Positions 35,944 to 53,508 of a stretch of DNA of 64,000 nt are shown in pieces. The translations under genes were made by a program, and so were the position numbers. Positions within the stretch are counted from its first letter, which is position 1, and every line of letters starts with the position of its first letter. The notes under the pieces are model-generated. The model did no database searches. It was given only the letters and a program-made list of their open reading frames with translations, and was not told the origin of the DNA. Origin of the DNA: Candidatus Hydrogenedentota bacterium (GTDB lineage: Bacteria; Hydrogenedentota; Hydrogenedentia; Hydrogenedentales; G963678445); the NCBI GenBank assembly GCA_963678445.1, contig OY782877.1:566528-630527 (forward strand), given 5' to 3'.

Positions 35944-36019
35944 CGTTCCGCCCTCCGACAAAAAAGGCGGGAATCTTTGAAACCAAAGATTCCCGCCATG
36001 ACAAACAAATCCAGAAAGG

Positions 36020-38256: not shown

Positions 38257-38337
38257 GGATGACAGCCACGGAATAATCTAAACAATGGCCAGCACCCCAT
38301 TGAGATGCTGGCCATTGTAAACAAACGCGATTCTATG

Positions 38338-40040: not shown

Positions 40041-40215
40041 TACCTTAGGCTAACGCTATAACATAAACAATCAAAAAGACAGAAGCGTTATCGCCCCCCC
40101 AAGATAACCACCTCGCGTGGCGCTACACCTATGTGCGGTAATCCCCCTTACAGAACCTCTTCCTATACGCCTGAGAGCTGTCAAAACAGACAAAAGTGGT
40201 GCCATTGGTCAAGAC

Positions 40216-40259
40216 AAAAAACACGAGCCAATGACTAGAATTTGCCAAGTCATTGGCTC
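40216..40259 (-). terminator. rho-independent terminator of the original tRNA-Val locus
   Basis: Minus strand: GAGCCAATGACT-(11 nt)-AGTCATTGGCTC, a perfect 12-bp stem, followed by GTGTTTTTTG. It lies 12 nt downstream of the displaced tRNA 3' end. Confidence 0.6.
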
Positions 40260-40271: not shown

Positions 40272-40319
40272 TAATGGTGGGCGGTACTGGACTCGAACCA
40301 GTGACCCCCTGCGTGTAAG
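40272..40319 (-). repeat. attL: displaced 3' part of tRNA-Val (anticodon loop to CCA, plus 3 nt)
   Basis: 48 bp, taatggtgggcggtactggactcgaaccagtgaccccctgcgtgtaag, identical to 53429..53476. Confidence 0.85.
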
Positions 40320-40619
40320 TCATGCACAGCCGAGTAACTTTTTATGCAACACCCCGCTTGATACCGTTACCGCTTACCCTTAGAAATCCCCACCTTGCAC
40401 CCGAATGTGCAGCTTTGCAACAAAGTGCAGAAAAACTGTTGTAAAAATTGTTGTAGTTGCCCCACACTTATCCCTAATCTTGCACTCTAATTAAGGATAC
40501 CATTTCATGAGGGTTACAGCAATAAAGCAAATATTGTGGATTCTCTACAGAACCTATACACTTTAATAAGGGTTACCGGTTCGTATTGAGATGCGATTCA
40601 TACATGGGGAACACAATAC

Positions 40620-42926
40620 ATGGATTTTCTCGGAAAAATTCTCGAAAAAATCATTCCTGAGTCTTGGTACTTAACATGCAGAGCACATCCTGCTATTTCT
40701 CTAACAATCCTAGCTCTTTTCGTGCTCCTTATTTGGGGGATAAAAACCTACTTTTCCCGCCTTAAAAACGTTCCTTCAAAACAGAATGTTAAAAACAGCA
40801 TAAACAAAAGCACGGTTCAGAATCACGGAATCCTCCAGCAAGGCGACCATGCTACCGCTACGTATATTAAACACCAGGAAAACCATTTTGAAGGTCCGAA
40901 AGAAGGCCTGGACAGACTCAATGCTGCTATTGAACATTTAAAAAAAGCATTGAAAGAAGAAAAAGATAGCACTCAAAAACTGAGGATTTCCGCTGAAATC
41001 AATCACTTAGAACAAAAAAGGGAGAAATGGAAAAAAGCCCTTGTTCGGCTTACAGAAAGCTTCCGAAGAACCCCTATTGATACAGAACGTCTGGAACAAG
41101 CAAAAGCGCTTTTCAATAAAGAGCAATTGCAAAAAGCAGATACCGTTCTCAAAGAAGAAACCTTAGAGCAGGATTTATTGCAGCTGGAAAAAGAGGAAAA
41201 GTGGGGAGAACAGATAACCGCCAATGCACGAAAGCAAAAAAAACAACTTGCCAACGAGTATCTCATCAAGGCCCAATTACGCATTACATTTTATGATAGA
41301 CCCCATCGGATAGAAGAGGCCTGTGGCTTTTTCGAAAAAGCTCTTCGTGCCAGCAGGACCCCTGAAATCCTTTTCGAATATGCACGATTCCTTCAGGAGC
41401 ATAACCACCACCTAAAAAAGGTAGCAGGTTTATATGAGGAAGCGCTGCGGTATTACCGAGAACTAGCATCGACGAATCCCGAAAAATTCCTGCCCGATGT
41501 GGCGACTACGCTCAACAATCTCGCCATTCTTCAAAAAGATCTACAGGAGTACCCCTCGGCCCGTGCATCCTATGAGGAAGCGCTAAAAATACGCAGAGAA
41601 CTAGCATCGGCGAATCCCGAAAAATTCCTGCCCTATGTGGCGACTACGCTCAACAATCTCGCAAATCTTCAATCAGATTTACAGGATTACCCCTCGGCCC
41701 GTGCATCCTATGAGGAAGCGCTGAGGTATTACCGAGAACTAGCATCGGCGAATCCCGAAAAATTCCTGCCCTATGTGGCGACTACGCTCAACAATCTCGG
41801 TCTTTTGCAAAAAGACCTACAGGATTACCCCTCGGCCCGTGCATCCTATGAGGAAGCGCTGAGGTATTACCGAGAACTAGCATCGGCGAATCCCGAAAAA
41901 TTCCTGCCCGATGTGGCTATGACGCTCAACAATCTCGCAAATCTTCAATCAGATTTACAGGATTACCCCTCAGCCCGTGCATCCTATGAGGAAGCGCTGA
42001 GGTATTACCGAGAACTAGCATCGGCGAATCCCGAAAAATTCCTGCCCGATGTGGCGACTACGCTCAACAATCTCGGTCTTTTGCAAAAAGACCTACAGGA
42101 TTACCCCTCGGCCCGTGCATCCTATGAGGAAGCGCTAAAAATACGCAGAGAACTAGCATCGGCGAATCCCGAAAAATTCCTGCCCTATGTGGCGACTACG
42201 CTCAACAATCTCGGTCTTTTGCAAAAAGACCTACAGGATTACCCCTCGGCCCGTGCATCCTATGAGGAAGCGCTGAAAATACGCAGAGAACTAGCATCGG
42301 CGAATCCAGAAAAATTCCTGCCCGATGTGGCGGGTACGCTCAACAATCTCGGTGCTCTTCAATCAGATTTACAGGATTACCCCTCGGCCCGTGCATCCTA
42401 TGAGGAAGCGCTGAAAATACGCAGAGAACTAGCATCGGCGAATCCCGAAAAATTCCTGCCCGATGTGGCGGGTACGCTCAACAATCTCGGTGCTCTTCAA
42501 TCAGATTTACAGGATTACCCCTCGGCCCGTGCATCCTATGAGGAAGCGCTGAGGTATTACCGAGAACTAGCATCGGCGAATCCCGAAAAATTCCTGCCCT
42601 ATGTGGCGGGTACGCTCAACAATCTCGCAAATCTTCAATCAGATTTACAGGATTACCCCTCGGCCCGTGCATCCTATGAGGAAGCGCTGAAAATACGCAG
42701 AGAACTAGCATCGGCGAATCCCGAAAAATTCCTGCCCTATGTGGCGACTACGCTCATAAATATGGGCATCTTTTACCTAGAGGGCCTGTCGAACCGGGAA
42801 AAGTCTATCGCGGCAGCCCGGGAAGCTATTGAAATTCTCACGCCCATACAGCATATACGCCCCGCATACAAAAAGTGGATAGACATGTCTCGCCTAATAT
42901 TAAAGAAAAATGGAGTTAACGAATAA
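40620..42926 (+). CDS. prophage cargo: membrane-anchored coiled-coil protein with ten 46-aa kinesin-light-chain-type TPR repeats
   Basis: N-terminal TM helix (AISLTILALFVLLIWGI), a K/E/Q-rich coiled coil, then 10 x [ASYEEAL(RYY|KIR)RELASANPEKFLP(Y|D)VA(T|G|M)TLNNL..LQ(S|K)DLQDYPSAR]. Confidence 0.8.
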   Translation: MDFLGKILEKIIPESWYLTCRAHPAISLTILALFVLLIWGIKTYFSRLKNVPSKQNVKNSINKSTVQNHGILQQGDHATATYIKHQENHFEGPKEGLDRLNAAIEHLKKALKEEKDSTQKLRISAEINHLEQKREKWKKALVRLTESFRRTPIDTERLEQAKALFNKEQLQKADTVLKEETLEQDLLQLEKEEKWGEQITANARKQKKQLANEYLIKAQLRITFYDRPHRIEEACGFFEKALRASRTPEILFEYARFLQEHNHHLKKVAGLYEEALRYYRELASTNPEKFLPDVATTLNNLAILQKDLQEYPSARASYEEALKIRRELASANPEKFLPYVATTLNNLANLQSDLQDYPSARASYEEALRYYRELASANPEKFLPYVATTLNNLGLLQKDLQDYPSARASYEEALRYYRELASANPEKFLPDVAMTLNNLANLQSDLQDYPSARASYEEALRYYRELASANPEKFLPDVATTLNNLGLLQKDLQDYPSARASYEEALKIRRELASANPEKFLPYVATTLNNLGLLQKDLQDYPSARASYEEALKIRRELASANPEKFLPDVAGTLNNLGALQSDLQDYPSARASYEEALKIRRELASANPEKFLPDVAGTLNNLGALQSDLQDYPSARASYEEALRYYRELASANPEKFLPYVAGTLNNLANLQSDLQDYPSARASYEEALKIRRELASANPEKFLPYVATTLINMGIFYLEGLSNREKSIAAAREAIEILTPIQHIRPAYKKWIDMSRLILKKNGVNE
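41433..42765 (+). repeat. 10 tandem copies of a 138-bp coding repeat inside the TPR gene
   Basis: tatgaggaagcgct recurs with a 138-bp period (for example 41571 and 41709). Copies are near-identical apart from a few cassette-like positions. Confidence 0.9.
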
Positions 42927-42950
42927 CGGTTCTTCTTTGTAGGGATACGT

Positions 42951-43238
42951 CTAGGTCAATAATCGGCTTTCTACGTATTCGTCGAGGTCGCGTTTTCGGA
43001 AGACGACGCTACTGCGTCCGGCGTCACCGAATTTGGCGCGTTTTATTTTGCCTTCGTAAGATAGGGAATCCAGTTGGCGTAGGCTGATACGCAGGTAGTC
43101 TGCGGCTTCGTCGCGGGTGAAGTATTCTTGTTGTGGGGCGGTGCCGCTTAATGTGTTAAGGCGCATTCCTAAGTCTTCAATCGTGCCGGTCAATCGTTCG
43201 AAGTATTCGGCCAGTTCTGCCGCGGTTACTATCTCCAT
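42951..43238 (-). CDS. excisionase-family / MerR-like helix-turn-helix DNA-binding protein
   Basis: 95 aa. ..YFTRDEAADYLRISLRQLDSLSYEGKIKRAKFG..VVFRKRDLDEYV matches the HTH_17/excisionase pattern. Immediately downstream of Rep. Confidence 0.6.
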   Translation of the reverse strand: MEIVTAAELAEYFERLTGTIEDLGMRLNTLSGTAPQQEYFTRDEAADYLRISLRQLDSLSYEGKIKRAKFGDAGRSSVVFRKRDLDEYVESRLLT

Positions 43239-43242
43239 TGCG

Positions 43243-44643
43243 CTATGCCTCCATTACGCAGAAGTTGCCGTTTGTCCAGTCGAATTCGTATTGCAAATCT
43301 TCGTTGTACCAGTGGAATTGCGGTGCTTTATGGCCTTGGTATTGCATGTTTTGCTTGATACCTTTGTTAATGGCCTTGTCGATGGTCCGGTCCCAGTAGT
43401 CGTCGCCTTCGTATTTTAGGAGTTCCGACATGGCTACAAACATGTCGCTTAGAAAGCCTTGGGTGTCGGTGTTGAGGGAGCCGGTATCTTCGAATTGTGC
43501 AGCGGAGAGGCACCCTATGGCCTGTTTAATCAGGGCCTTTGCTTTGGCCTTGCAGCGCTTCACGCGGGTAACGATTTCGCCGACGGTCCCTGTCCATGAC
43601 TTGAAGGCTTCTCTCACTTTGGTCCACAGGGGGTGTTCTTCGCCTTTGTCTTGGTTGCGGTTCTGGCGGTCGACGTCGTTTTTGTGGAGCCTGACCCAGT
43701 TTGTTAGCACATATTCGGCAATACCTGGCTTTTCGCGTTCGTAGTCGTCGTAGCTGTTGATACCCATTTCTTTAAGAACGGGCCGTCTGAGCTGAATTTC
43801 GACGCGTACGGCCTTGTCTGGATTATCCCGGTAACGGTATTTGCAAAGGTAGTCCCATTTTAAGCCTTTGCGCTTGGTTTCTAGTGCTTTTTCGTAGATA
43901 CGTAAAAGTATGTCACCTTTTCCTATCTGAACGCCTGATTTCTTCCAGTCGCGGAAGTAAACGCTTCCGAAGCGGGCGCGGGTGACGAAGTGCTTCTCCC
44001 AAAAGGCGTCACAGAATTCGGTTATATCCAATCCCGGCAGATCTACACACAAATCCACACGGGACACTTGAAGCTCCTGTAAACGGCCACCGATAGAGGA
44101 TAGTATTGCTTCGATGTGCTTTTTCAAGCCATGAGACTTATAGAACATGCATACAAGACTCCCGGCCAAAATACGAACGTTGAAGCATCCCGGTTCGCCG
44201 CCGGACTTGTCTTGGATGGCAAAGACGATACCGCCCGCCTCGAGTTTGTATTTTGCGTAGCCGTATCCGAACCCGGAGCCGTTGGGATGCACCAGAAAAT
44301 TCTGGTCATAGACTTTCAGCGGGACCAGCTCACCGGTAAGGATGGAATCAAGACGGCCACCCTCAAAAATAGAGCGCAGGTCACGCCAGTGACGCCACGT
44401 AACGGATGCATTGAGTATCATCATATCTTCTCCACCCGTTTCCCCTTTTTCCTCCCCCTTACGAGTAGAGGGGGGCGTGATACTGGATTCGCCCCCCATC
44501 CGCAAATCTAAGTCCCCATTGCTAAACATTTCATTCAACATGTCGAGTCTCCTTTTTTTGGGGTCGGGGTGTGCGCTCTTTTTCCGCACAGCGTTGCGCC
44601 TCGCTCGGCCGCTCGGCACTCCGCTGTATGTAAAAGTCGCCAC
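43243..44643 (-). CDS. rolling-circle replication initiation protein, Rep_trans-like
   Basis: ..LQVSRVDLCVDLPG.., ..GKGDILLRIYEKALE.. and ..AVRVEIQLRR.. resemble the conserved blocks of the replication initiation factor family used by many inoviruses and pT181-type plasmids. Confidence 0.6.
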   Translation of the reverse strand: MATFTYSGVPSGRARRNAVRKKSAHPDPKKRRLDMLNEMFSNGDLDLRMGGESSITPPSTRKGEEKGETGGEDMMILNASVTWRHWRDLRSIFEGGRLDSILTGELVPLKVYDQNFLVHPNGSGFGYGYAKYKLEAGGIVFAIQDKSGGEPGCFNVRILAGSLVCMFYKSHGLKKHIEAILSSIGGRLQELQVSRVDLCVDLPGLDITEFCDAFWEKHFVTRARFGSVYFRDWKKSGVQIGKGDILLRIYEKALETKRKGLKWDYLCKYRYRDNPDKAVRVEIQLRRPVLKEMGINSYDDYEREKPGIAEYVLTNWVRLHKNDVDRQNRNQDKGEEHPLWTKVREAFKSWTGTVGEIVTRVKRCKAKAKALIKQAIGCLSAAQFEDTGSLNTDTQGFLSDMFVAMSELLKYEGDDYWDRTIDKAINKGIKQNMQYQGHKAPQFHWYNEDLQYEFDWTNGNFCVMEA

Positions 44644-44710
44644 GCCTCCGCCTAAAAAACTTTGAAATCTCCACCTTGACTAACTTCGTTTGATGTGTGG
44701 GGATTTTTTT

Positions 44711-44849
44711 GGGGTTGGTTGGAAGAAAAAATTATCGAGTGCACCGTGGTGTGTGTACGAAATTGATTTTATTTGGGTCGGGGCGCTCTCGTTGTTCGCT
44801 CATGAAGTGTGTCAAAAACGGTTTTTCTTTTTTTCTCCGAACCAACCCC
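44711..44849. promoter_or_regulatory. long inverted repeat in the pIV-Rep intergenic region (candidate packaging signal / origin hairpin)
   Basis: ggggttggttggaagaaaaaa (44711-44731) pairs with tttttttctccgaaccaacccc (44828-44849), an ~18-of-21 match, enclosing 96 nt. Confidence 0.4.
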
Positions 44850-44913
44850 GGAAGGAAATTACACATCAACCTACGTTCGTAAAGGTTGTATTTAAAACTT
44901 TTTTCTTAACGGC

Positions 44914-46164
44914 TCAGCTTTGTGCGCCTGCTTGCGTTTGTATGCGTTCGACTTTGGCCCATACGCGCAGAATTCCGTTTCTATGCTGTTTTGTGCGGGT
45001 CAATCCTGCAAAGCCGCTTGTAGTGTTTGTGGCGCTGGAGCGTTGGAGGCTGCCGAGGAGGTACACGCCGCCGGAGGCTATCACGGTTTCGCCGGTGAGC
45101 ACGTCTTTGGTTTCGATGGGTATGCTTTCGTCTACGTAACCGGAGACTTCGCCTAGTTGCAGGTCGTAGACCAGGCTGGCTTGTTCTCGGCCCCAGTCGC
45201 GGAGGGATACGGCGAAATTAAAGCCGACGTCTACATTCTGGTATCCGGAGACTGAGACAGCACCGGTTTCTGAGGTGGTGTATTGTGGGACGGGAATGCT
45301 TTCTACTTTCTGCAAGGAAGCCTTGCCGCCATCGACCAAAAGCAGAAGGGGACGCGCAACTATACGCACGTCAGAGCGTTCTATTTCGCATCGCAGGGCG
45401 GCGTCCAGCTCGGCTTTGTAATTCGTGGCGCTGTCCACATCAGAGAGCAACACGGCCAGCCGTATATCGTCCTGGATGTCCAATCCGGTTGTTTTGATGT
45501 CGGTGTTCGTCTCTTGCAAAAGGTACAGCTGAACAGCCCACACACTGACATCGAGGCTCTGAAGCTTTTGCACTATCTCCGCCGCTTTTCGTATGGCTTC
45601 TATTTCGTCGGCAACAATGACGCTACCATCTTGCAGTACGGTTACAACGCCTTGCTCGGTTTTGACGGCGTTAAGCACGGGTTCTATTTCGTCGACTTTG
45701 GCGCGGAGCACTTTTCCTACGAAGTAAGCCCTATCGGTTTTCTTCGGTTCACCGAGAAAGTAGAGACGTCCGTATTCGGCAAGGCTAACGTTAAGACGTC
45801 GTGCAACCACCATAAGCACGTCTTTTGCGGGGATATCTTCCACGCTCAAGGAAATTAGGCTTTCGTCAAGCGCTTCGGCCCAGACCACAGAAAGCCCGGT
45901 GTCACTGGCGAATTGTCGCAGGAATGCACCCACAGTCATGGATTCGACGCGGTAGCTGCAGGTTTCATTGCTAGCTGTCTCCGTGGGTAACGTCGTCGAC
46001 TGATTGACCTTTGCCTGCTGATATATCTGTTCCCAGTGCGGGGATTGCGCCGAGGACGGACCGGCGTTTACGCTGTGTTGGCAGCCCGCCAACAAAAACC
46101 CGAGTAAGGTCAGTAAATACAATATAACCGCCGTTTCGATTAACTTCCTTGACCGTCTTCCCAT
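44914..46164 (-). CDS. secretin (phage pIV-like), predicted lipoprotein
   Basis: C-terminal secretin domain (..IVARPLLLLVDGGKASLQKVESIPV..YQNVDVGFNFAVSL..TGETVIASGGVYLLGSL..). N-terminus MGRRSRKLIETAVILYLLTLLGFLLAGC carries a lipobox (LAGC). Confidence 0.75.
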   Translation of the reverse strand: MGRRSRKLIETAVILYLLTLLGFLLAGCQHSVNAGPSSAQSPHWEQIYQQAKVNQSTTLPTETASNETCSYRVESMTVGAFLRQFASDTGLSVVWAEALDESLISLSVEDIPAKDVLMVVARRLNVSLAEYGRLYFLGEPKKTDRAYFVGKVLRAKVDEIEPVLNAVKTEQGVVTVLQDGSVIVADEIEAIRKAAEIVQKLQSLDVSVWAVQLYLLQETNTDIKTTGLDIQDDIRLAVLLSDVDSATNYKAELDAALRCEIERSDVRIVARPLLLLVDGGKASLQKVESIPVPQYTTSETGAVSVSGYQNVDVGFNFAVSLRDWGREQASLVYDLQLGEVSGYVDESIPIETKDVLTGETVIASGGVYLLGSLQRSSATNTTSGFAGLTRTKQHRNGILRVWAKVERIQTQAGAQS

Positions 46165-47518
46165 AGTAACCGGTTTCTGTGAGAGTATCTCCCACCATGT
46201 AACTTGCTCCACTTTCAAAGACTGCATAGTTGTTTCCTTCCGGGTTTTCGCCCAACATCACAAGGCGTGAGGCTTCGTTTTTGAGACGGTCTACTTCGTC
46301 ACGCAGGCTGTCGATTTCGGCGTAGAGCACTTCACGTTCAAGAATGACTTGCGGCATGTCCTTTGCCCGGTACTCCCGAACGCCTTCTACGTCGAAATCG
46401 GTTCGTACTAAAACAGGGTTCAGGTCCATGAGCTTTTCTGCGTCGCCCTTTTCGATTTCAACGGTTCCAGATTCGATAGCGCCGTCCAAGTCTGGCTTGC
46501 TTTCCGTTTCCGCGCCTTCAACCATTGCAGCCCCGGCTGTCATGGATTCCATAGAGGAAACAAAGCATTCAATTCCCATGACCAGCCCGCCACCGAAAAA
46601 AAACCAGACGCCCAGAAGCAGCAATACAACACGGGAAGAGAGCGCCCAGGCGTTTCTACTGATAAACCAAGCCAATAACCCCGGCCAGCTCCGCCGTTCC
46701 CATTGCTTTTGCGAGGGCTTAGCTACCTTTTCGTAGGACTCACCTGGGGAAACCGCGCCGGCCGGCGCTTCGCCAGGCGTTTCTTTTCCTACATCTTGGT
46801 AACTTTCGTTTTCTTCACGTTGACGGCGGTGGGGCTTGGCGTAGGAGTTGTACAGCTCGTAGTAACGCGGCGTAGGGTAGATGCGCTTGGAAAGTCCAGT
46901 CTTTACCCACTTCCGGTCTACCTTGCGTTTTTCGATTTGCCAGATACAGGGAGACCAGTAGCCAATAGCCTTGGCCTTCAGTTCGTACCAGTCGCCCATC
47001 TGGATTTTAAAAAGTGGGTCGCGCTCGGTTTCTTGATTGACCAGTTCGACCCGGAGGCCGACCATATTGACCAGACGCTTATCCACTGAATCTAAGTCTT
47101 GCGTCAGGAATTCAATCGTTGCACCATCGTGACGGATTTCCGCTATCCATTCCCGCCATAAGCGCCGCCGTTCCACTTCGCCGGTCTTGGGTGCGTAGTG
47201 ATGGAACTCATCGAACTGCAGATGTGCGCCCGCAAGGTCTGCGGCGTCCATTTCCCAGGGCCCCTGAACGCTACCCTCTTTAGTCCAGGCGTTCACCGTT
47301 TCGCGGTCGATGACTTGTATGCGCCGCCGTACTATATCCTCTGATATTTTGTGACGCTTGGCGGCTTCAATAACAATCTCATCCACGTTGAGAGGAATGG
47401 TGGTGTAGAGGACACCGGAATGCTCCGGTAGCCATTCATCCATGACGAAGGCCGGACCGCGTGAATACGACTTATAGCCACCCATCGGGGCAGTTGTCAG
47501 ATATGCAACAGTATTCAT
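45971..47518 (-). CDS. Zot / pI-like filamentous-phage assembly protein
   Basis: N-terminal NTPase-like domain (..YLTTAPMGGYKSY.., ..HLQFDEFHHY..), a central TM helix (..LLLLGVWFFFGGGLVMGI..) and a periplasmic C-terminus. Positioned between the pVI-like and pIV-like genes. Confidence 0.65.
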   Translation of the reverse strand: MNTVAYLTTAPMGGYKSYSRGPAFVMDEWLPEHSGVLYTTIPLNVDEIVIEAAKRHKISEDIVRRRIQVIDRETVNAWTKEGSVQGPWEMDAADLAGAHLQFDEFHHYAPKTGEVERRRLWREWIAEIRHDGATIEFLTQDLDSVDKRLVNMVGLRVELVNQETERDPLFKIQMGDWYELKAKAIGYWSPCIWQIEKRKVDRKWVKTGLSKRIYPTPRYYELYNSYAKPHRRQREENESYQDVGKETPGEAPAGAVSPGESYEKVAKPSQKQWERRSWPGLLAWFISRNAWALSSRVVLLLLGVWFFFGGGLVMGIECFVSSMESMTAGAAMVEGAETESKPDLDGAIESGTVEIEKGDAEKLMDLNPVLVRTDFDVEGVREYRAKDMPQVILEREVLYAEIDSLRDEVDRLKNEASRLVMLGENPEGNNYAVFESGASYMVGDTLTETGYYGKTVKEVNRNGGYIVFTDLTRVFVGGLPTQRKRRSVLGAIPALGTDISAGKGQSVDDVTHGDS

Positions 47519-47522
47519 AGGC

Positions 47523-47825
47523 TTAACTCAGGGTGGGAATGTGTTTTTTAATCGTGCGGTAGGTGAACACTAGAATCTGAATATTTAGGTAGATGACAAA
47601 AAGCCCCAAAGCAAAATCGAGCGGAAACCAATAGTTAGCAATTTTTAAGTAAGGGGCTAACTCTTCTACATGAACGTTTTCAAAGACAGGGAGTTTTTCC
47701 AAAATAAACGAAAAAAGATTCGTTAAAATAGGCTCAATTTTTGCGATGAGAAAACGAACAAAATCCTCTAAGGTCTTCAGAAGCCATCCACAAAAATCTT
47801 TGTACCAGTCTGTCATGAAATCCAT
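47523..47825 (-). CDS. pVI-like minor virion/membrane protein, 100 aa
   Basis: Small hydrophobic protein sitting between the pIII-like and pI-like genes, as gene VI does in Ff. Assigned by position and size only. Confidence 0.4.
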   Translation of the reverse strand: MDFMTDWYKDFCGWLLKTLEDFVRFLIAKIEPILTNLFSFILEKLPVFENVHVEELAPYLKIANYWFPLDFALGLFVIYLNIQILVFTYRTIKKHIPTLS

Positions 47826-47837
47826 AAAATCTACTTT

Positions 47838-49715
47838 CTATGTTAATTTAAACAACAACCGCATGACGGCACGGTAGAAAAAAACGATGCATACAATTTC
47901 TAAGAGAAGACGCACGAGCCACCTGAAAGTACCCAAAGCAGAAGACCAAGGCTTATCATCGGGCATCAAATTAACGTCAAAGGTGTAATCGTCGGGGTGC
48001 CCAATAGAAACGCCCATTACCTCGGTAGGCAATGTAATTTGAAAGGTTAGGTTTTCCTCACCGTCTGGCATCAGACGATTTATATAGGATTCAGCAGAAA
48101 GCGCCGACAAAACCCCTTCAACATCGTCACCAGCGTCAATAAAAACGGTCCCGCCACCTTCACCTTCGTTGGTTACCGGTCCCTCTCCTCCACTCAAAAT
48201 ACCACCGAGACTTTCCTCAAATTCGTCTTGACTCATACCACCACCTAAACCATCACCGACAACATTTTCTAAAGCTCGCCCGAAAGCGGTTTCCATCGAA
48301 CCAATGTTATTACGAATTCCCTCAGAAACCTCCTTGTCAATATCCTTATTCGCCTCCCAAACCCCAGCGGCAATAGCGTCTGCTAGGCTCCCTTTCGTAT
48401 TTTGCAGGGCAGATTGAACGGAATTAGCTATATCTTGCGGTGTTAAGGTTGTAGGGTCGGGGTCATTCGGCTGCGGGTCGTTATCAACTTCATCTCCGGG
48501 GCTCGGTGTATATTCCGGCGGCGTTTCGTCTTCCGGTTCTGGGTCGTCGTCGTACTGGCCTGCACCGGGGTTATAGCTTGGCGATGGTGCCCAATTAGGA
48601 ACACGCACGTCATTAGATATATGGCTGCCGCTTGGAGGATGTGAGTAGCTATTGTGTGGGTTACTTCCGTATTCTGCTTCCGCCGCATCCGGCCAACTAT
48701 CGCCGTCTGAATCCATTGGCGTACTGCTGGCGTTGTTCGGGTCGGCGCCGTAGTAATCTTCCAAACCATTAGGAACGCCGTCCATATCAGAATCCCCCCA
48801 TGCGGATTCGTAGTCTGGGTACGAATTCTGGCTTATTCCGTTACTACCACACGGATGACTGTCCGGATTTGCAACCCCCGTACCCGCCCACAGTTCAAAC
48901 GGGTCTGAGTAGCCATCCCCGTCAGAGTCAATAAGCGTGTTATCCGGTTTCGTTGGGTCCGAACCGAAAGAGAGTTCATCCTGATTAGGCACCCCATCCC
49001 CATCAGCATCAGAGTCAGAACCGTTAGCAATTCCGTCCCCGTCAATGTCGCCATCAGGGTCCATTCCCATAAAATTACTTAAAGCTTCCGGGTCTACGAA
49101 ATATGCGCCCTGCTCAGGGAATAGGTCATTTTGGTCCGGCGTGCCGTCACCATCCGTGTCCGTAGGCGTATCGTTAGGGTCGTCCGGGTCGGTACCGCAA
49201 CTGCCCTCCTGATAATCAGATATACCGTCCCCGTCGGAATCCGTATTATAATCGTCTTGCTCTGCCTCCGGCTGTATATTTTCATCAAAAGGATCACCAT
49301 CATCCTGATTCATTTCCCATCCATCCGGCACCCCATCACCATCAATATCACCATCCCCCAAATCACGCCAACCCAGTCCCGCCCCTCCCAGCGCATCCCC
49401 CAGACCCTCGCGTGTCGTTATAACCGTTAGCACAACACCCGAATCCGGCACCTCTAGACCTCCTGAACAAACCCCGTCCTCATCGTTGCTATTATGCGAG
49501 CGGCTTACCGGAGTGACCGTGATATACCGCTGTGTAGTCCCATGGTAAAAAGCACGCACCAGAACCTTAACTCCATCGCCATAGCAAGCCGTACATTCCC
49601 CGATAAGCGTCATACTCGTATAACCACGGCTAGAGAGATAGCTGAGAAGCGATGGAACCGCCCACAAGTCACGCGTCAAAAGGCAGAGAGCCAGTACTAA
49701 AAAAAGTCGTTTCAT
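47838..49715 (-). CDS. pIII-like adsorption/minor coat protein with TSP3-type Ca-binding repeats
   Basis: Signal peptide (MKRLFLVLALCLLTRDLWA), many D.DGDG..D/N..E...G.DP repeats, a Gly-rich linker, and a C-terminal membrane anchor (..LLLEIVCIVFFYRAVMRLLFKLT). Follows the coat-protein genes. Confidence 0.55.
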   Translation of the reverse strand: MKRLFLVLALCLLTRDLWAVPSLLSYLSSRGYTSMTLIGECTACYGDGVKVLVRAFYHGTTQRYITVTPVSRSHNSNDEDGVCSGGLEVPDSGVVLTVITTREGLGDALGGAGLGWRDLGDGDIDGDGVPDGWEMNQDDGDPFDENIQPEAEQDDYNTDSDGDGISDYQEGSCGTDPDDPNDTPTDTDGDGTPDQNDLFPEQGAYFVDPEALSNFMGMDPDGDIDGDGIANGSDSDADGDGVPNQDELSFGSDPTKPDNTLIDSDGDGYSDPFELWAGTGVANPDSHPCGSNGISQNSYPDYESAWGDSDMDGVPNGLEDYYGADPNNASSTPMDSDGDSWPDAAEAEYGSNPHNSYSHPPSGSHISNDVRVPNWAPSPSYNPGAGQYDDDPEPEDETPPEYTPSPGDEVDNDPQPNDPDPTTLTPQDIANSVQSALQNTKGSLADAIAAGVWEANKDIDKEVSEGIRNNIGSMETAFGRALENVVGDGLGGGMSQDEFEESLGGILSGGEGPVTNEGEGGGTVFIDAGDDVEGVLSALSAESYINRLMPDGEENLTFQITLPTEVMGVSIGHPDDYTFDVNLMPDDKPWSSALGTFRWLVRLLLEIVCIVFFYRAVMRLLFKLT

Positions 49716-49864
49716 TAAAAATGACGCTCCCTCATTAAATTACGAATCATTCCCCAGAACTGCCCCGCAGCAATAAAACCTAAGCCACACACAACCGCCG
49801 TTTGAAGTTTTATGACCATATCCAGCTTTTCCGATATTGCAGTCAGCAACGCTATCTCCGTCAT
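49715..49864 (-). CDS. 49-aa hydrophobic protein (pVII/pIX-like position), not in the ORF track
   Basis: Hand translation: MTEIALLTAISEKLDMVIKLQTAVVCGLGFIAAGQFWGMIRNLMRERHF*. Its TAA shares an A with the pIII-like ATG (TAATG coupling). Confidence 0.4.
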   Translation of the reverse strand: MTEIALLTAISEKLDMVIKLQTAVVCGLGFIAAGQFWGMIRNLMRERHF

Positions 49865-49875
49865 TCTTGCACCTC

Positions 49876-49912
49876 ACAAAAAAGTAGAGGGGGAACGGTT
49901 TCCCGTCCCCCC
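49876..49912 (-). terminator. GC-rich hairpin plus T-run just after the major-coat gene
   Basis: Minus strand: GGGGGGACGG-GAAA-CCGTTCCCCC, then TCTAC-TTTTTT. The T-run is offset by 5 nt, so this is only moderately canonical. Confidence 0.45.
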
Positions 49913-49920
49913 GGCTGGAA

Positions 49921-50220
49921 TTACACACCGGCTGCTTTTTTCAACCAACGGCATCCAATCCAGACCAAACTGAATGCGGTATACCCGCCAACCGCTACAG
50001 CTACAATGCCGCCCAGACTGGCAATACCGGCCGCGATGTAATCACCCATCGTTACACCTTCGCCCAGCGGCTGAGGAAGCGTAACCGTCGACTGAGCGTA
50101 CACCTGTTGAGCCCCGAACACCGCAGCCGCACAGACCGCCAGAGCAGCAACCTTACAACGACCTACAACGTCGACAGCCTTCTGATTCAGACTTTTCATT
50201 CCATCCCAAATTTTCAACAT
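49921..50220 (-). CDS. major coat protein (pVIII-like) precursor
   Basis: Leader ending ..AAAVFGAQQVYA/QS. The short mature part has a hydrophobic core (IAAGIASLGGIVAVAVGGYTAFSLVWIG) and a basic tail (CRWLKKAAGV). AAGGAGAAG RBS upstream. Confidence 0.65.
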   Translation of the reverse strand: MLKIWDGMKSLNQKAVDVVGRCKVAALAVCAAAVFGAQQVYAQSTVTLPQPLGEGVTMGDYIAAGIASLGGIVAVAVGGYTAFSLVWIGCRWLKKAAGV

Positions 50221-50280
50221 GATTTCTTCTCCTTACATTGTTTGTTTACACTGACCTACACAAAAATTCGTTCTGATGTT

Positions 50281-50466
50281 TTAGCGCTTGAGATCTCCAC
50301 CCCAGAACGAAAAAAGACCATAACCAAAGAAAATCTTTAGTACATAAAACATGCAGATATGGAAGACCAAAGCCAACCAAAAATAGTGAAAGAAAAAACC
50401 CCAGGGACTAACGAATTCCATATCTACAAAAACCTTCCTAATTATTCTTCTCAGGCAAATGAACAT
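50281..50466 (-). CDS. small hydrophobic protein (46-61 aa) in the prophage
   Basis: The ORF overlaps the upstream gene end and is very hydrophobic (..WGFFFHYFWLALVFHICMFYVLKIFFGYGLF..). Existence uncertain. Confidence 0.3.
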   Translation of the reverse strand: MFICLRRIIRKVFVDMEFVSPWGFFFHYFWLALVFHICMFYVLKIFFGYGLFSFWGGDLKR

Positions 50467-50764
50467 GAACAGGAAAGCTCCGACAGCCCAAAAAAGCCGC
50501 TAAAGCCTCCAAATCCCTACTCGTAATCGACATCTGAGAACCGCAGCAGCGAACTTTATCTAATTCGTCAGAATCGAAATTCCGCTTTCCTTCGTAGACC
50601 TCCAAATATTCGGGTTTATACAAACAAAACGAAAGTCCGTTTAAAGCGCGCAGCTCATAAAGTGAAAGGCTTGATTGCTGTTCAAAATCCAACGACCGGA
50701 AACGGTCCAAGATTTCAGCGCCAACGAGATAAGGAACTTCGTATTCGTAAAAAGGCTTATCCAT
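50438..50764 (-). CDS. prophage hypothetical protein, 108 aa
   Basis: Intact ORF in the operon. No recognisable family. Confidence 0.45.
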   Translation of the reverse strand: MDKPFYEYEVPYLVGAEILDRFRSLDFEQQSSLSLYELRALNGLSFCLYKPEYLEVYEGKRNFDSDELDKVRCCGSQMSITSRDLEALAAFLGCRSFPVHVHLPEKNN

Positions 50765-50775
50765 TGGAATCCCCT

Positions 50776-51105
50776 TTACGCGTTAGCTGCTTTTTTGGAG
50801 GTGGGAGGAAGAGAGACGACCTTCCCAAAATCGACCGCCCCAAGGAATTTTGCAGAAGCAAGCCCCAGCTCCATACGGCCACGGTTGTTTTGCATAGGCC
50901 GCATCTCGAATTCATAGAGACCTGGCACCTGCGGAAGAGAGACATCCGCCGGTTTCCCCGTTTTGAAAGTCTTCAAGCCCGTGTACTTGTCGGAATCCTC
51001 CTTGTACTCCAAATCAAGGTACTCCAACACAGCCCCACTACGGACAACCCCTGTTTTTTCGTCCACCATTTCCCATGGTTTCAATCCAAATACTAAAACC
51101 TTCAT
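50776..51105 (-). CDS. candidate ssDNA-binding protein (pV-like), 109 aa
   Basis: Starts at MKVLVFGLKP.. with GGGAGA upstream. Beta-rich small protein, first gene of the structural operon. Assigned by position and size only. Confidence 0.3.
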   Translation of the reverse strand: MKVLVFGLKPWEMVDEKTGVVRSGAVLEYLDLEYKEDSDKYTGLKTFKTGKPADVSLPQVPGLYEFEMRPMQNNRGRMELGLASAKFLGAVDFGKVVSLPPTSKKAANA

Positions 51106-51563
51106 AGTCCATTTCTCCCTGTGGCCTTCCCGGCCGGTTTTTGCCGAGCAGATACAAAAAAAGCCCGGCAGTTTCGTTGTAGGAAACCGCCGAGCTTGGG
51201 CGTTTAAAAAATGGACCTCACCCCCCAATGTAAGTACATCGCGAATTCGAAACTTTCTACTAAAAACGGTTTATTTTTTTCGAAATCTTTTGATATACTT
51301 CGAGCGGGGGGCACCGAGGCAGTCGGTCAGACTTACTTAGCGGTGTTCCTCAGGCCTCGCGAAGCTGCAACTTCGTGGGGCCACTTTTTTTTTCAACTAT
51401 GAAATTAAACGTATCAGAAAAAATTTTCTATGTCAAGTACTTTTTGCTACTTTTTAAAAAATTTGCTGCGTCTTAATGAATTTTGCTTCATAAGTCACAT
51501 AAATGATATCTTTTAGCCCGCATGTATTACAGCAAACGAATGGCAAACAGTAAGGAGGTAGCC

Positions 51564-52256
51564 ATGTGGAAATGCCCCCAATGCGGCGTAGAAAACTGGG
51601 ATAATGCTAACGTATGCACCCGCTGTCGAAAATTCCGCTCTGAGCTTTTCCGGGAAAAGAAAGAGCAAGAAGAAAATGTAAAACAGGTGCAGGAAGAAAA
51701 ACAAAGGCAGGACAACAAAAGCTTGACCTTGGACCCTCCCTTCACAACAAAACTAAAAATAGCTTTCGGATGGTCAATGGCCTTTACCCCATTTGTTATT
51801 CTTTTTTCTTTCATACTTGCTATTATTCTTATTTTCTGTGTTGACCGATATTTCTACTTTTCGTTGAAAGCCATAGTCGACAAATTAGAATCAGAAATCA
51901 CAGGGCTTTCAAAAGGGCTTTCAAAAGTCGACAAGCATCCATTTACAGGATTCATCAACCCCACTAAAAATACCTCTGCTCCTGTCAGGAAAAGGCCTAG
52001 CGCAATTGAAAAAAAACATCAAATAGTTAACAAACAACCCAACCCCGCCGAGGAAGCCCGTGGGATTATCAACGAAGCCTCTGTCCCTGTCAGGGGAAGG
52101 CCTAAAGCAATCGAAAAAAAACATCGAACCGTCAACACGAGACCTAACCCCGCCGAGGAAGCCCGCAAAATTGTCAAGGAAGCCCTTGAGCCTGCCGAGG
52201 AAGCCCGTAGATTTATTCGAGAAACCCAAGAATCTTTTGGAAAGCTTGATTATTGA
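51564..52256 (+). CDS. zinc-ribbon membrane protein with duplicated basic R(K/G)RP..IEKKH motifs (candidate prophage regulator)
   Basis: AAGGAGG 5 nt upstream of the ATG at 51564. MWKCPQCGVENWDNANVCTRCR zinc ribbon, one TM helix, and a tandem ~31-aa repeat (..VRKRPSAIEKKHQIVNKQPNPAEEAR.. / ..VRGRPKAIEKKHRTVNTRPNPAEEAR..). Confidence 0.5.
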   Translation: MWKCPQCGVENWDNANVCTRCRKFRSELFREKKEQEENVKQVQEEKQRQDNKSLTLDPPFTTKLKIAFGWSMAFTPFVILFSFILAIILIFCVDRYFYFSLKAIVDKLESEITGLSKGLSKVDKHPFTGFINPTKNTSAPVRKRPSAIEKKHQIVNKQPNPAEEARGIINEASVPVRGRPKAIEKKHRTVNTRPNPAEEARKIVKEALEPAEEARRFIRETQESFGKLDY

Positions 52257-52284
52257 CATCAAAAACATATTACGTTACGCGCTT

Positions 52285-53373
52285 TCAGAATCGGTCAATG
52301 TCTGCATCATAGTCCTGCAATCCTGCGTAATGCTTAGCCGTCACATTTACGCTGGAATGTCCCATCCATTTTGAAATCTTGTATAGACTCGTTCCGCTAA
52401 TGGCATGCTGACTGCCGAAGGTATGCCGTAGAATCTGAAAATTCACCCCTTCTACCTCGGCTTTTTCTGCTACCGTTTTTAAAGCTTTCTTGGGTTCATA
52501 GCGATAAAGTGCGCGCCCCGTTGACGGGCGATTACTCGTAAAAAGGAAGCCTTGTTTTTTTCGATGGAGATACAGGGTAGTGTGTAGGCGTGTACTCAAA
52601 GGGACGGTACGTTCTTCATTGTCTTTCAGTTCAAAACCTTCGTGCCGCTGAATACGTATAAGCTTCTTTTCAAAATCGAACCATTCCCAACGTGCATTAA
52701 CCATTTCATTTTTTCGCATACCTGCATAGATGCCCAGCATCAGCAACCAGTACAAGGCCTGTGAATAGTCGTTCGCAACAGTTAGTAGGCGTTCTATTTC
52801 CTCCACTTTTAAAAACGTGGGCTGTGTTTTGGGGATTTTGTAGCGTTCGACACCGATAAAAGGGTTTTCACCATCAAAAAGCTTTAGTTTTATAGCATGG
52901 TTGAATATGGCCTGTAGGTGCCGTAGGGCATCGTTGATAGATTCGTCTTTCAGTGGCCGGCCACGCATGCCTTTTCGTTTCAGGCGCTGCTTGAAACGTT
53001 CAACATGCTGACGCTTGATGTCTTTGAGTCGTCGAGCCCCAGTGAAATCACGTAGCTGTTGCCAGAAATTCCGTTCTATCTCCAGGGTCTTAGGTCGTTT
53101 ATGGTCCTCAGCCCATCGAAAATAGGTCTGTTCAAAATCATCAAGGCGTGGGTTTAGGTTTGTCTTAAAAAAACGGTCCGCATTCTCGTGATACTCGGCA
53201 ATCCGTTTCTGACGGAGAAGTAGCGCTTCCCGCTTCGATTCCACCTTGAGCGATTCCCAGCGGGTTTCTCCATCAAGCTGGTACTTCCAATGCCAGTACC
53301 GCCCTTGCTTAATCAATGTTCCGTTTGTGATAGCCATAAACGAAATTGTTGTGTTTTTGTTGGAAAAAATCAA
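52285..53373 (-). CDS. int: tyrosine-type site-specific integrase
   Basis: ..LGIYAGMRKNE.. (Arg), ..ILRHTFGS.. (H-x-x-R), ..WMGHSSVNVTAKHY (His and catalytic Tyr). Adjacent to tRNA-Val. The start may be the internal ATG at 53337. Confidence 0.88.
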   Translation of the reverse strand: MIFSNKNTTISFMAITNGTLIKQGRYWHWKYQLDGETRWESLKVESKREALLLRQKRIAEYHENADRFFKTNLNPRLDDFEQTYFRWAEDHKRPKTLEIERNFWQQLRDFTGARRLKDIKRQHVERFKQRLKRKGMRGRPLKDESINDALRHLQAIFNHAIKLKLFDGENPFIGVERYKIPKTQPTFLKVEEIERLLTVANDYSQALYWLLMLGIYAGMRKNEMVNARWEWFDFEKKLIRIQRHEGFELKDNEERTVPLSTRLHTTLYLHRKKQGFLFTSNRPSTGRALYRYEPKKALKTVAEKAEVEGVNFQILRHTFGSQHAISGTSLYKISKWMGHSSVNVTAKHYAGLQDYDADIDRF

Positions 53374-53376
53374 GTC

Positions 53377-53419
53377 AAAAAAAATAGCCCAATGACCTAT
53401 TTTTGTAAGTCATTGAGCT
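53377..53419 (-). terminator. terminator hairpin downstream of the reconstituted tRNA-Val (phage-borne homolog of 40216..40259)
   Basis: Minus strand: AGCTCAATGACT-(9 nt)-AGGTCATTGGGCT followed by ATTTTTTTT. Confidence 0.55.
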
Positions 53420-53431
53420 TTAAGTACTTAA

Positions 53432-53508
53432 TGGTGGGCGGTACTGGACTCGAACCAGTGACCCCCTGCGTGTAAGGCAGGTGCTCTAACCAACTGAGCT
53501 AACCGCCC
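53432..53508 (-). tRNA. tRNA-Val (anticodon TAC), CCA encoded; contains attR
   Basis: The reverse complement GGGCGGTTAGCTCAGTTGGTTAGAGCACCTGCCTTACACGCAGGGGGTCACTGGTTCGAGTCCAGTACCGCCCACCA folds as a cloverleaf with anticodon loop CTTACAC. Confidence 0.9.

What the first reader, a model, noticed from the sequence alone, without database searches (positions are those of the whole stretch)
40272..53476. Integrated inovirus-like (filamentous) prophage in tRNA-Val, gene order collinear with Ff phages
Seen in sequence:
- A 48-bp string (40272-40319) is identical to 53429-53476. That segment covers tRNA-Val from anticodon-loop position 33 to the CCA, plus 3 nt.
- The intact tRNA (53432-53508) sits next to a tyrosine integrase. 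The displaced 3' half still carries its own terminator (40216-40259).
- The phage side carries a diverged homolog of that terminator hairpin (53377-53419). The attP region therefore looks as if it was captured from a related tRNA-Val locus.
- Between the repeats, all on the minus strand, lie: a small beta-rich protein, two small ORFs, a coat-protein precursor with leader, hydrophobic core and basic tail, a 49-aa hydrophobic ORF, a signal-peptide/Gly-linker/C-terminal-anchor protein, a 100-aa membrane protein, a Zot/pI-like protein, a secretin, a non-coding region with a long inverted repeat, and a Rep_trans-like initiator.

This is the Ff order V-(VII/IX)-VIII-III-VI-I-IV-IG-II. The integration module and cargo sit between II and V.

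Inoviruses are poorly described outside a few Proteobacteria and Firmicutes hosts. One in a DUF1559-rich (PVC/Hydrogenedentes-like) genome that encodes its own secretin, integrase and large cargo genes would be worth characterising.
Basis: partly seen in the sequence, partly recalled or inferred. Interest (0 to 1): 0.8.

Follow-up and report, generated by a model that had tools for sequence, protein, structure and literature searches.

The report
Filamentous prophage in Hydrogenedentota tRNA-Val
A 13.2-kb intact-looking filamentous (inovirus-type) phage sits integrated in a tRNA-Val gene of an uncultured Hydrogenedentota bacterium; it is a well-known kind of element, of note for its host phylum and its distance from every deposited phage.

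Summary
An exact 48-bp direct repeat (40272-40319 = 53429-53476) is the 3' part of tRNA-Val(TAC). It brackets 13,157 bp that encode a tyrosine integrase, an excisionase-like HTH protein, a pI/Zot ATPase (Pfam above threshold) and a secretin (above threshold). Also present are coat-, pIII- and pVI-like membrane proteins, a structured intergenic region and a rolling-circle Rep.

- The host is Candidatus Hydrogenedentota, judged from ArgS.
- The same phage, 90-93% identical, sits at tRNA-Val in another metagenome, and core genes show dN/dS of 0.06-0.15.
- A same-species genome carries two sibling inoviruses at tRNA-Pro and tRNA-Leu. They share Rep (94-97% aa) and the intergenic region, but pI is only 30-33% identical, so the replication module has been swapped.
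- The nearest morphogenesis modules lie in PVC-group genomes and on a circular 7.6-kb contig.
- Rep is homologous to gene II of Thermus inovirus OH3. Rep_trans is only a sub-threshold match.
- The secretin is a predicted lipoprotein whose 5' end overlaps pI by 194 nt.

The gene V assignment is unproven. Roux et al. 2019 already list such prophages in many phyla, including PVC. Verdict: interpretation supported, new member of a known kind, moderate interest.

The parts
40222..40259 (-). Host-side terminator hairpin left behind the displaced tRNA-Val 3' half
   Evidence: 13-15 bp stem followed by a U-run; -25.8 kcal/mol, z = -5.7
40272..40319 (.). attR core: displaced copy of tRNA-Val nucleotides 33-77 plus 3 nt
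   Evidence: Exact 48-nt repeat, 2 copies, 0 expected by chance
40620..42926 (+). Cargo: 768-aa protein with an N-terminal TM segment, coiled coil and TPR repeats, encoded by ~9.4 near-identical 138-nt tandem repeats
   Evidence: TPR_12 2e-79; repeats; TM at residues 18-48; present in L021 with 3 fewer repeats; no PADLOC hit
42951..43238 (-). Excisionase-like HTH protein (95 aa), candidate recombination directionality factor
   Evidence: PF12728 HTH_17, 37.1 bits > 27; TIGR01764 excisionase family, 27.4 vs 28.8; dN/dS 0.11
43243..44541 (-). Rolling-circle replication initiator (432 aa; the ORF extends to 44643)
   Evidence: phrog_33635 endonuclease 8e-11; tblastn to gene II of Thermus phages OH3/phiOH16/Zuza27; hhalign vs OH3 gII prob 96.7%, E 3.4e-10; Rep_trans sub-threshold
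44542..44913 (-). Intergenic region with a long imperfect hairpin; candidate origin and/or packaging signal
   Evidence: Nested inverted repeats; fold z = -2.66; arms conserved in 4 phages with one compensatory pair
44914..46164 (-). pIV-like secretin, predicted lipoprotein (416 aa); its 5' 194 nt overlap the 3' end of pI
   Evidence: PF00263 31.1 > 27.5, phrog_1012 2e-6; lipobox LLAGC conserved in relatives; dN/dS 0.06
45971..47518 (-). pI/Zot-like morphogenesis ATPase (515 aa) with one TM segment at residues 290-320
   Evidence: PF05707 23.7 > 20.3, phrog_197 1.6e-7; invariant K16 and D103-E104; TM
47523..47825 (-). pVI-like minor coat/membrane protein (100 aa)
   Evidence: Position; TM at 67-89; conserved in L001, L003, L006, L008, L010, L017; 100% identical in L021
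47838..49715 (-). pIII-like adsorption protein (625 aa): signal peptide, Asp-rich TSP3 repeats, C-terminal anchor
   Evidence: TSP3_bac 5.7e-13; hydrophobic 4-24 and 593-625; N-terminal ~120 aa not alignable with L021
49715..49864 (-). 49-aa hydrophobic protein (minor coat candidate)
   Evidence: TM at 14-34; conserved in L001, L003, L006
49889..49912 (-). Terminator-like hairpin directly after the coat gene
   Evidence: 10-bp GC-rich stem plus T-run; -22.2 kcal/mol
49921..50220 (-). Major coat protein precursor (99 aa; ~56-aa mature part)
   Evidence: Leader, hydrophobic core 59-90, basic tail RWLKK; homologs in 8 related loci; weak phrog_7106
50281..50421 (-). 46-aa hydrophobic protein (pVII/pIX-like candidate)
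   Evidence: TM; conserved in L001, L003, L006
50438..50764 (-). 108-aa protein of unknown function
   Evidence: No family hit; 67% identical in sibling L020
50776..51105 (-). 109-aa all-beta protein in the gene V position; ssDNA-binding candidate, unproven
   Evidence: Position; 6 predicted strands but pLDDT 52; no significant PDB or OH3 gV match; dN/dS 0.07
51522..52256 (+). Cargo: 244-aa Zn-ribbon/TM protein with 105-nt repeats
   Evidence: Weak Zn_Ribbon_1; TM at 80-119; 96% identical in L021
52285..53373 (-). Tyrosine integrase
   Evidence: PF00589 5e-22, phrog_1 5.5e-52; dN/dS 0.07
53386..53419 (-). Phage-borne terminator hairpin that now follows the rebuilt tRNA-Val
   Evidence: 14 pairs plus T-run; -19.1 kcal/mol, z = -5.6; shares its core with the host hairpin
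53429..53476 (.). attL core
   Evidence: Exact repeat
53432..53508 (-). Intact tRNA-Val(TAC)
   Evidence: ARAGORN; Rfam 74.1 bits

Best explanation
This is a temperate filamentous phage (order Tubulavirales) with a 13,157-bp unit, integrated into tRNA-Val(TAC) of a Candidatus Hydrogenedentota chromosome.

Shown:
- The boundaries, the gene set and the homologies.
- The existence of a near-identical copy, of sibling prophages and of a circular relative.

Inferred mechanism:
- The tyrosine integrase recombined a phage attP with the tRNA gene. attP carries the last 45 nt of the tRNA plus a terminator, so integration rebuilt a working tRNA and left the old 3' half at attR.
- For excision, the integrase would act with the HTH_17 protein to give a circle.
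- The gene II-like Rep would nick within the hairpin-rich intergenic region and drive rolling-circle synthesis of ssDNA.
- A small beta-rich protein would coat the ssDNA.
- The inner-membrane pI ATPase and the phage's own lipoprotein secretin would extrude the filament. During extrusion it would pick up the 56-aa major coat protein and the small hydrophobic minor proteins, including the pVI-like one.
- A pIII-like protein with a variable N-terminus would set host recognition.
- The TPR and Zn-ribbon membrane proteins are cargo of unknown role.
For: - Repeat and tRNA.
- Integrase, Zot and secretin all score above Pfam thresholds, with PHROG support.
- Rep is homologous to gene II of Thermus inovirus OH3.
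- Protein topologies fit inovirus structural proteins.
- The intergenic hairpin is conserved across four phages.
- The module p46-coat-p49-pIII-pVI-pI-secretin is syntenic in L001, L003 and L006. L003 is a 7,761-bp contig with a 119-bp terminal overlap, so it is probably a circular genome.
- The same phage sits at tRNA-Val in another sample at 90-93% nt identity. dN/dS is 0.06-0.15 for int, Rep, pI, secretin, the gene V candidate and the HTH protein.
- Sibling prophages lie at tRNA-Pro (77-bp direct repeats 10,692 bp apart) and at tRNA-Leu in a genome 98.97% identical to the window's flank.
- Host assignment comes from ArgS.
Against: - There is no direct evidence of excision, ssDNA or virions.
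- Empty-attB and attP junction patterns were not found in JGI metagenomes or IMG/VR.
- The same-species genome has different DNA next to the T2SS-F gene, so it does not provide a clean empty site.
- No repressor was identified.
- The gene V candidate, the coat protein and the pVI-like protein have no significant family match.
- pI scores only just above the Pfam cutoff and has no tblastn hit in GenBank phages.
Confidence: 0.87

Rival explanations
1. It is a cryptic or defective inovirus prophage. The element integrated as described but can no longer excise or make particles, and its genes are kept for some benefit to the host.
For: No junction evidence was found. No regulator was identified. 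Large cargo genes make it longer than the 7.6-kb circular relative.
Against: All 14 ORFs are intact. Both att cores are perfect. dN/dS is 0.06-0.15 across the integration, replication and morphogenesis genes when compared with an independent copy. The pIII N-terminus diversifies as expected for a host-range determinant under active infection.
Confidence: 0.08
2. It is a composite of a ~8-9 kb inovirus and a separate integrative island (integrase plus cargo) that entered the same tRNA. The 13.2 kb would then not be one mobile unit.
For: The circular relative L003 and the JB024 relative lack the integrase and both cargo genes. Sibling prophages place their integrase at the other end.
Against: There is no third copy of the att core inside the element. 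L021 has the same end-to-end architecture, including both cargo genes, at 90-93% identity.
Confidence: 0.04
3. It is a non-viral integrative element whose ATPase and secretin form a secretion or pilus-like apparatus for the host.
For: Secretins and P-loop ATPases also occur in T2SS and T4P systems. A T2SS-F gene lies just outside attR.
Against: The best family matches are Zot and M13 protein IV. The element has a phage gene II-type Rep and a coat-protein-like gene followed by a terminator. It has a circular 7.6-kb relative. It lacks T2SS/T4P components such as GspE/F/G.
Confidence: 0.01

Closest known systems
Integrated inovirus prophages with canonical att sites (Roux et al. 2019, Nat Microbiol, PMC6813254)
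   Same: A pI-like ATPase marker and a short, mostly co-directional gene set. Direct repeats in a tRNA next to an integrase. Cargo genes. That study already lists integrated examples in Planctomycetes, Verrucomicrobia and Lentisphaerae.
   Different: Hydrogenedentes does not appear in the supplement text held here. pI has no close relative in IMG/VR. I could not run that study's own pI models or family classifier.
Ff phages (M13/fd/f1), Inoviridae
   Same: The order of functions is V-like, small hydrophobic proteins, VIII, III, VI, I, IV, intergenic region, II. The phage encodes its own secretin (phrog_1012), has a terminator right after the coat gene and has a hairpin-rich intergenic region.
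   Different: There is no detectable sequence similarity at BLAST level. This element has an integrase and an excisionase and integrates into a tRNA. Its secretin is a predicted lipoprotein that overlaps pI by 194 nt. One small ORF lies between VIII and III. At 13.2 kb it is about twice the size and carries two cargo genes.
Thermus phage OH3 (Tubulavirales; Paulinoviridae; Thomixvirus)
   Same: The gene II replication endonuclease is homologous to the window's Rep (hhalign prob 96.7%, E 3.4e-10, 263 columns).
   Different: Only Rep matches. pI found no tblastn hit in the phage collection, which holds OH3. OH3 is 5.7 kb, and no secretin or integrase is annotated.
Inovirus relatives in PVC-group genomes (Verrucomicrobiota JB024, Sedimentisphaerales PL23b_bin.68) and a circular marine contig (ENA k119_282117)
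   Same: A syntenic morphogenesis module: pI 42-59% identical, secretin 42-49%, and pIII, pVI and coat also conserved.
   Different: JB024 and the circular contig carry a different Rep family (PF23343 REP_ORF2-G2P) and lack this integrase and cargo. The Sedimentisphaerales locus (L006) does carry an integrase homolog, next to a tmRNA gene; its Rep was not examined. Their hosts belong to other phyla.
CTXphi / RS1 and other mosaic vibrio inoviruses
   Same: Replication and morphogenesis modules are exchanged between filamentous phages that share a host (established knowledge). Here Rep plus the intergenic region is 94-97% aa / 83-88% nt identical to sibling prophages whose pI is only 30-33% identical.
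   Different: CTXphi integrates through host XerCD at dif and uses the host secretin. This phage has its own integrase, a tRNA target and its own secretin.

Membership tests
Inovirus / Tubulavirales (sensu Roux et al. 2019) | pI-like morphogenesis ATPase (Zot domain) with Walker A/B motifs and a TM segment after the ATPase domain | tested here: met
   PF05707, 23.7 bits against a cutoff of 20.3; phrog_197, 1.6e-7. K16 and D103-E104 are invariant in 14 homologs; Walker A reads GGYKS in the close clade and GxGKS in distant members. One TM segment at 290-320.
Inovirus / Tubulavirales | Small major coat protein with a leader, one hydrophobic helix and a basic C-terminus | tested here: met
   Sequence features; conserved in 8 related loci. 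The only HMM hit is a weak phrog_7106 match at 0.046.
Inovirus / Tubulavirales | Rolling-circle replication initiator | tested here: met
   Homolog of gene II of Thermus inovirus OH3; phrog_33635 endonuclease, 8e-11. Y216 is invariant within LRIYEK.
Inovirus / Tubulavirales | Small genome of short, mostly co-directional genes | tested here: met
   13,157 bp, with 12 of 14 genes on one strand. The circular relative has a 7.6-kb core.
Inovirus / Tubulavirales | ssDNA-binding protein (gene V type) | tested here: inconclusive
   The 109-aa protein sits in the right position and is predicted to be all-beta, but pLDDT is 52. There is no significant match by PDB profile, Foldseek or OH3 gV.
Inovirus / Tubulavirales | Circular ssDNA packaged in a filamentous virion released without lysis | not testable with these tools
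   Needs induction, electron microscopy and ssDNA sequencing.
tRNA-integrating temperate phage (tyrosine integrase) | Integrase next to an intact tRNA, with a direct repeat of the tRNA 3' end at the far boundary | tested here: met
   The same arrangement occurs in L021. A 77-bp repeat flanks the sibling prophage at tRNA-Pro.
Rep_trans (PF02486) | Score at or above the Pfam gathering threshold (29.6 bits) | tested here: not met
   17.7 bits for the window protein and 24.0-24.4 for planctomycete homologs. 12 of 59 family members match at E <= 0.01, best 4e-5. No PDB RepD-type hit by profile. This is at most a remote relationship.
Secretin (PF00263) / phage pIV | C-terminal secretin domain above threshold, with an N-terminal export signal | tested here: met
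   31.1 bits against 27.5; phrog_1012, 2e-6. Signal peptide with a lipobox.
Ff group (genus Inovirus) | Detectable sequence similarity of core proteins to Ff or other deposited inoviruses | tested here: not met
   tblastn with pI finds no match in 50,697 GenBank phage records. The element is collinear with Ff but is not a member of that group.

The most novel reading that the evidence does not exclude
The element and its relatives form a family-level Tubulavirales lineage that has not been classified and is restricted to PVC-group bacteria and Hydrogenedentota. Its marks are a self-encoded lipoprotein secretin whose 5' end is nested in the 3' end of pI, and free exchange of the Rep-plus-origin cassette between very different co-resident filamentous phages. 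On this reading the window holds the first host-resolved virus of the uncultured phylum Hydrogenedentota.
Probability: 0.4. Interest if true: 0.5.

Novelty: new member of a known kind. Interest (0 to 1): 0.4.

Why it matters
Hydrogenedentota has no cultured members and, in the literature searched here, no described phage.

A complete, boundary-resolved prophage in a closed 5.1-Mb genome gives a firm virus-host link for this phylum. It also provides a ready att/integrase pair that could serve as a genetic tool. The window prophage and its two siblings in a same-species genome form a natural set for studying how filamentous phages swap replication modules while keeping different export machines.

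The lipoprotein secretin with a conserved overlap on pI may show how such phages build an outer-membrane pore in atypical envelopes. None of this changes what is known about the kind of element. Inovirus prophages in tRNA genes were catalogued at scale in 2019.

Tried and rejected
- Exact look-up of the window's pI found no contig on record.
- Exact look-up of three flank proteins (ArgS, RfbA, T2SS-F) found no cluster members, so the host was identified by ArgS homology instead.
- The empty-attB pattern gave 0 hits in JGI metagenomes, and the attP junction pattern gave 0 hits in IMG/VR.
- I looked for a clean empty site in the same-species genome. Homology to the window stops at 40077 and other genes follow. 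The window's unoccupied tRNA-Pro has a different downstream flank from the attR side of L020. Neither gives a simple presence/absence pair.
- Gene V test: the AF2 model had pLDDT 52, Foldseek gave nothing below E 0.5, a PDB profile search gave nothing, and hhalign against OH3 gV was not significant.
- Rep structure from a single sequence had pLDDT 37 and was not used.
- PDB sequence and profile searches with Rep gave nothing relevant.
- NCBIfam had no model for Rep or pI.
- PADLOC found nothing for the cargo or the small proteins.
- Single-protein scans of IMG/VR with pI and Rep found no close relatives.


Full report
**Observation**

The string TAATGGTGGGCGGTACTGGACTCGAACCAGTGACCCCCTGCGTGTAAG occurs exactly twice in the window, at 40272-40319 and 53429-53476. 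None is expected by chance. The match runs to 51 nt with one mismatch.

ARAGORN and Rfam place tRNA-Val(tac) at 53432-53508 on the minus strand.

The displaced half is followed on the minus strand by a hairpin and a U-run (-25.8 kcal/mol, z = -5.7). The phage side of the intact tRNA has its own hairpin and U-run (-19.1 kcal/mol, z = -5.6). The two hairpins share the core CCAATGAC...AAGTCATTG at almost the same distance from the repeat. This fits an attP that carries a tRNA 3' end plus a terminator, so that integration rebuilds a complete transcription unit. A sibling phage does the same with a 77-bp repeat made of the tRNA-Pro 3' end and a terminator.

**Gene content**

Reading the minus strand from the tRNA:

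| Feature | Coordinates | Evidence |
|---|---|---|
| Tyrosine integrase | 52285-53373 | PF00589 5e-22; phrog_1 5.5e-52 |
| Zn-ribbon/TM protein (plus strand) | 51522-52256 | weak Zn_Ribbon_1 |
| Terminator-like hairpin | 51161-51197 | |
| 109-aa all-beta protein | 50776-51105 | no family hit |
| 108-aa protein | 50438-50764 | no family hit |
| 46-aa hydrophobic protein | 50281-50421 | TM segment |
| 99-aa coat precursor | 49921-50220 | leader, hydrophobic core, RWLKK tail |
| GC-rich terminator | 49889-49912 | |
| 49-aa hydrophobic protein | 49715-49864 | TM segment |
| 625-aa pIII-like protein | 47838-49715 | signal peptide, Asp-rich TSP3 repeats, C-terminal anchor |
| 100-aa pVI-like membrane protein | 47523-47825 | one TM segment |
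| pI/Zot ATPase | 45971-47518 | PF05707 23.7 bits vs cutoff 20.3; phrog_197 1.6e-7; one TM at 290-320 |
| Secretin | 44914-46164 | PF00263 31.1 vs 27.5; phrog_1012 'protein IV of M13' 2e-6 |
| Intergenic region (372 nt) | 44542-44913 | nested inverted repeats |
| Rep | 43243-44541 | see below |
| HTH_17/excisionase-like protein | 42951-43238 | PF12728 37.1 vs 27; TIGR01764 27.4 vs 28.8 |
| TPR protein (plus strand) | 40620-42926 | ~9.4 near-identical 138-nt repeats |

One small ORF lies between VIII and III, and the integration module and cargo lie between II and V.

The intergenic region folds into one long imperfect hairpin. Its arms are almost invariant in four phages while the apex varies, and one pair in the main stem changes on both sides.

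**Rep**

Rep_trans is only a sub-threshold match. The window protein scores 17.7 bits against a cutoff of 29.6, and planctomycete homologs score 24 bits. Of 59 sampled family members, 12 match at E <= 0.01.

The protein belongs to a large uncurated family with 1,712 representative clusters at E <= 1e-3. Its only relatives among GenBank phages are the gene II replication endonucleases of the Thermus filamentous phages OH3, phiOH16 and Zuza27. A profile comparison with OH3 gII gives 96.7% probability and E 3.4e-10 over 263 columns, with SRVDLCVDLP, LRIYEK and VRVEIQLRR aligned. OH3 is a classified member of Tubulavirales (Paulinoviridae). PDB searches and a single-sequence model gave nothing usable.

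**Gene V**

This assignment remains unproven. The protein has only three homologs, all in sister prophages. The model is all-beta but of low confidence (pLDDT 52). No PDB, Foldseek or OH3 gV comparison is significant.

**Host**

The flanks are chromosomal: argS, a MATE transporter, a UvrD-like helicase, rfbA, a T2SS-F gene, flagellar genes, ffh and a DUF1559/N-methyl pilin-like gene. Every named ArgS homolog at 64-70% identity is from Candidatus Hydrogenedentes/Hydrogenedentota. The source contig is 5.11 Mb.

**Relatives**

- pI homologs are few (14 in 5.8 billion proteins). The nearest named one, at 59% identity, is from Verrucomicrobiota bacterium JB024.
- A scan of one genome per species found relatives only in PVC-group genomes: Verrucomicrobiota, Phycisphaerae/Sedimentisphaerales, Planctomycetota including strain ZRK32, and Victivallaceae.
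- IMG/VR holds only distant relatives at 29-34% identity.
- The module p46-coat-p49-pIII-pVI-pI-secretin is syntenic in JB024, in a Sedimentisphaerales MAG and in a 7,761-bp ENA contig. That contig's 119-bp terminal overlap equals the assembler's k-mer, so it is very probably a circular ~7.6-kb phage genome.
- The JB024 and circular-contig relatives use a different Rep (PF23343 REP_ORF2-G2P) and lack the integrase and cargo. The Sedimentisphaerales locus does carry an integrase homolog, next to a tmRNA gene.
- A 22.5-kb ENA contig (L021) carries the same phage next to tRNA-Val at 90-93% nt identity from end to end. It includes both cargo genes and the attR core.
- Between the two copies, dN/dS is 0.06-0.15 for integrase, the gene V candidate, p49, pI, secretin, Rep and the HTH protein. 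It is 0.25-0.31 for pIII and coat. The N-terminal ~120 residues of pIII do not align at all, and the TPR protein differs by three repeat units. The genes are therefore maintained by selection, and the likely receptor-binding end is diversifying.

**Sibling prophages and module exchange**

A 976-kb contig that is 98.97% identical to the window over 33278-40077 represents the same species. It has no tRNA-Val or prophage next to the T2SS-F gene. It does carry two other inovirus prophages, directly after tRNA-Pro(cgg) and tRNA-Leu(cag).

The tRNA-Pro prophage is bounded by 77-bp direct repeats 10,692 bp apart. The same tRNA-Pro in the window (33280-33357) is unoccupied, although its downstream flank differs.

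These siblings share Rep (94-97% aa), the intergenic region (83-88% nt) and the gene V candidate (82%) with the window phage. Their pI is only 30-33% identical and their secretin 25%. A replication cassette has therefore moved between two very different filamentous-phage lineages in one host species.

**Secretin detail**

In the window and in four relatives, the secretin reading frame begins with a basic, hydrophobic signal that ends in a lipobox (LLAGC, LLTGC, CLAGC, STSC). This start lies inside the 3' end of pI, and the overlap is 194 nt in the window. Gene callers missed it. Ff pIV is not a lipoprotein (established knowledge).

**Comparison with what is known, and novelty**

Roux et al. 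2019 (PMC6813254) reported 10,295 inovirus-like sequences in nearly all bacterial phyla. Among the manually curated genomes from microbial genomes, 582 were integrated prophages with att repeats in a tRNA or next to an integrase. Their supplementary table lists integrated examples in Planctomycetes, Verrucomicrobia and Lentisphaerae. Inoviruses have also been reported from cultured Lentisphaerae (PMC11361711).

Hydrogenedentes does not appear in the held supplement text, and no paper in the library links it to inoviruses. The element is thus a new member of a known kind. It is unusually well resolved, it comes from an uncultured phylum, and it is far from any deposited phage.

**Limits**

No excision, ssDNA or particle evidence is available. 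Junction patterns were not found in JGI metagenomes or IMG/VR. No repressor was recognised, and the roles of the cargo genes are unknown.

Noticed in passing
window 33280-33357: tRNA-Pro(cgg) is unoccupied here. In a same-species genome (L020), the same tRNA is followed by a 10.7-kb sibling inovirus prophage flanked by 77-bp direct repeats. The downstream flanks of the two genomes differ, so this is not a clean empty site.
   Followed up: partly
window 45971-46164: The secretin starts inside the 3' end of the pI gene (194-nt overlap, different frame). It begins with a signal peptide ending in a lipobox (LLAGC), which is conserved in relatives from other phyla. Automated gene calls in relatives start the secretin downstream of this point.
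   Followed up: partly
window 41458-42756: About 9.4 tandem copies of a 138-nt unit (91% matches) encode near-identical 46-aa TPR units in a phage cargo protein with an N-terminal TM segment. The copy in L021 has three fewer units. Its function is unknown and it has no PADLOC hit.
   Followed up: partly
window 49242-49699: The 5' part of the pIII-like gene (N-terminal ~120 aa) does not align with the otherwise 90-93% identical phage in L021. It looks like a swapped or hypervariable receptor-binding end.
   Followed up: partly
window 49889-49912: A strong GC-rich terminator hairpin sits directly after the major coat gene, in the same position as the terminator after gene VIII in Ff phages.
   Followed up: partly
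window 51973-52182: Two 105-nt tandem repeats (79-81% identical) lie inside the Zn-ribbon/TM cargo gene and encode a repeated basic segment.
   Followed up: no
window 18464-18834; 62809-63005; 54695-54796; 10915-11020: A ~99-bp host repeat occurs as a 3.7-copy tandem array upstream of a DUF1559 pilin-like gene, with further copies elsewhere in the window and in the same-species contig (L023 3770-3872). Its nature is unknown.
   Followed up: no
window 26928-28550: An IS1182-family transposase gene (NCBIfam 1e-103).
   Followed up: no
L006 13986-15295: In a Sedimentisphaerales MAG, a related inovirus module lies near an integrase homolog next to a tmRNA gene. This suggests tmRNA as another integration target in this phage group.
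   Followed up: no
L001 72-3267 and 12592-16525: The closest morphogenesis relative (Verrucomicrobiota JB024) has no integrase or tRNA nearby. It sits between DndB/methyltransferase genes and toxin-antitoxin/NACHT genes, so it uses a different, unidentified mode of residence.
   Followed up: no
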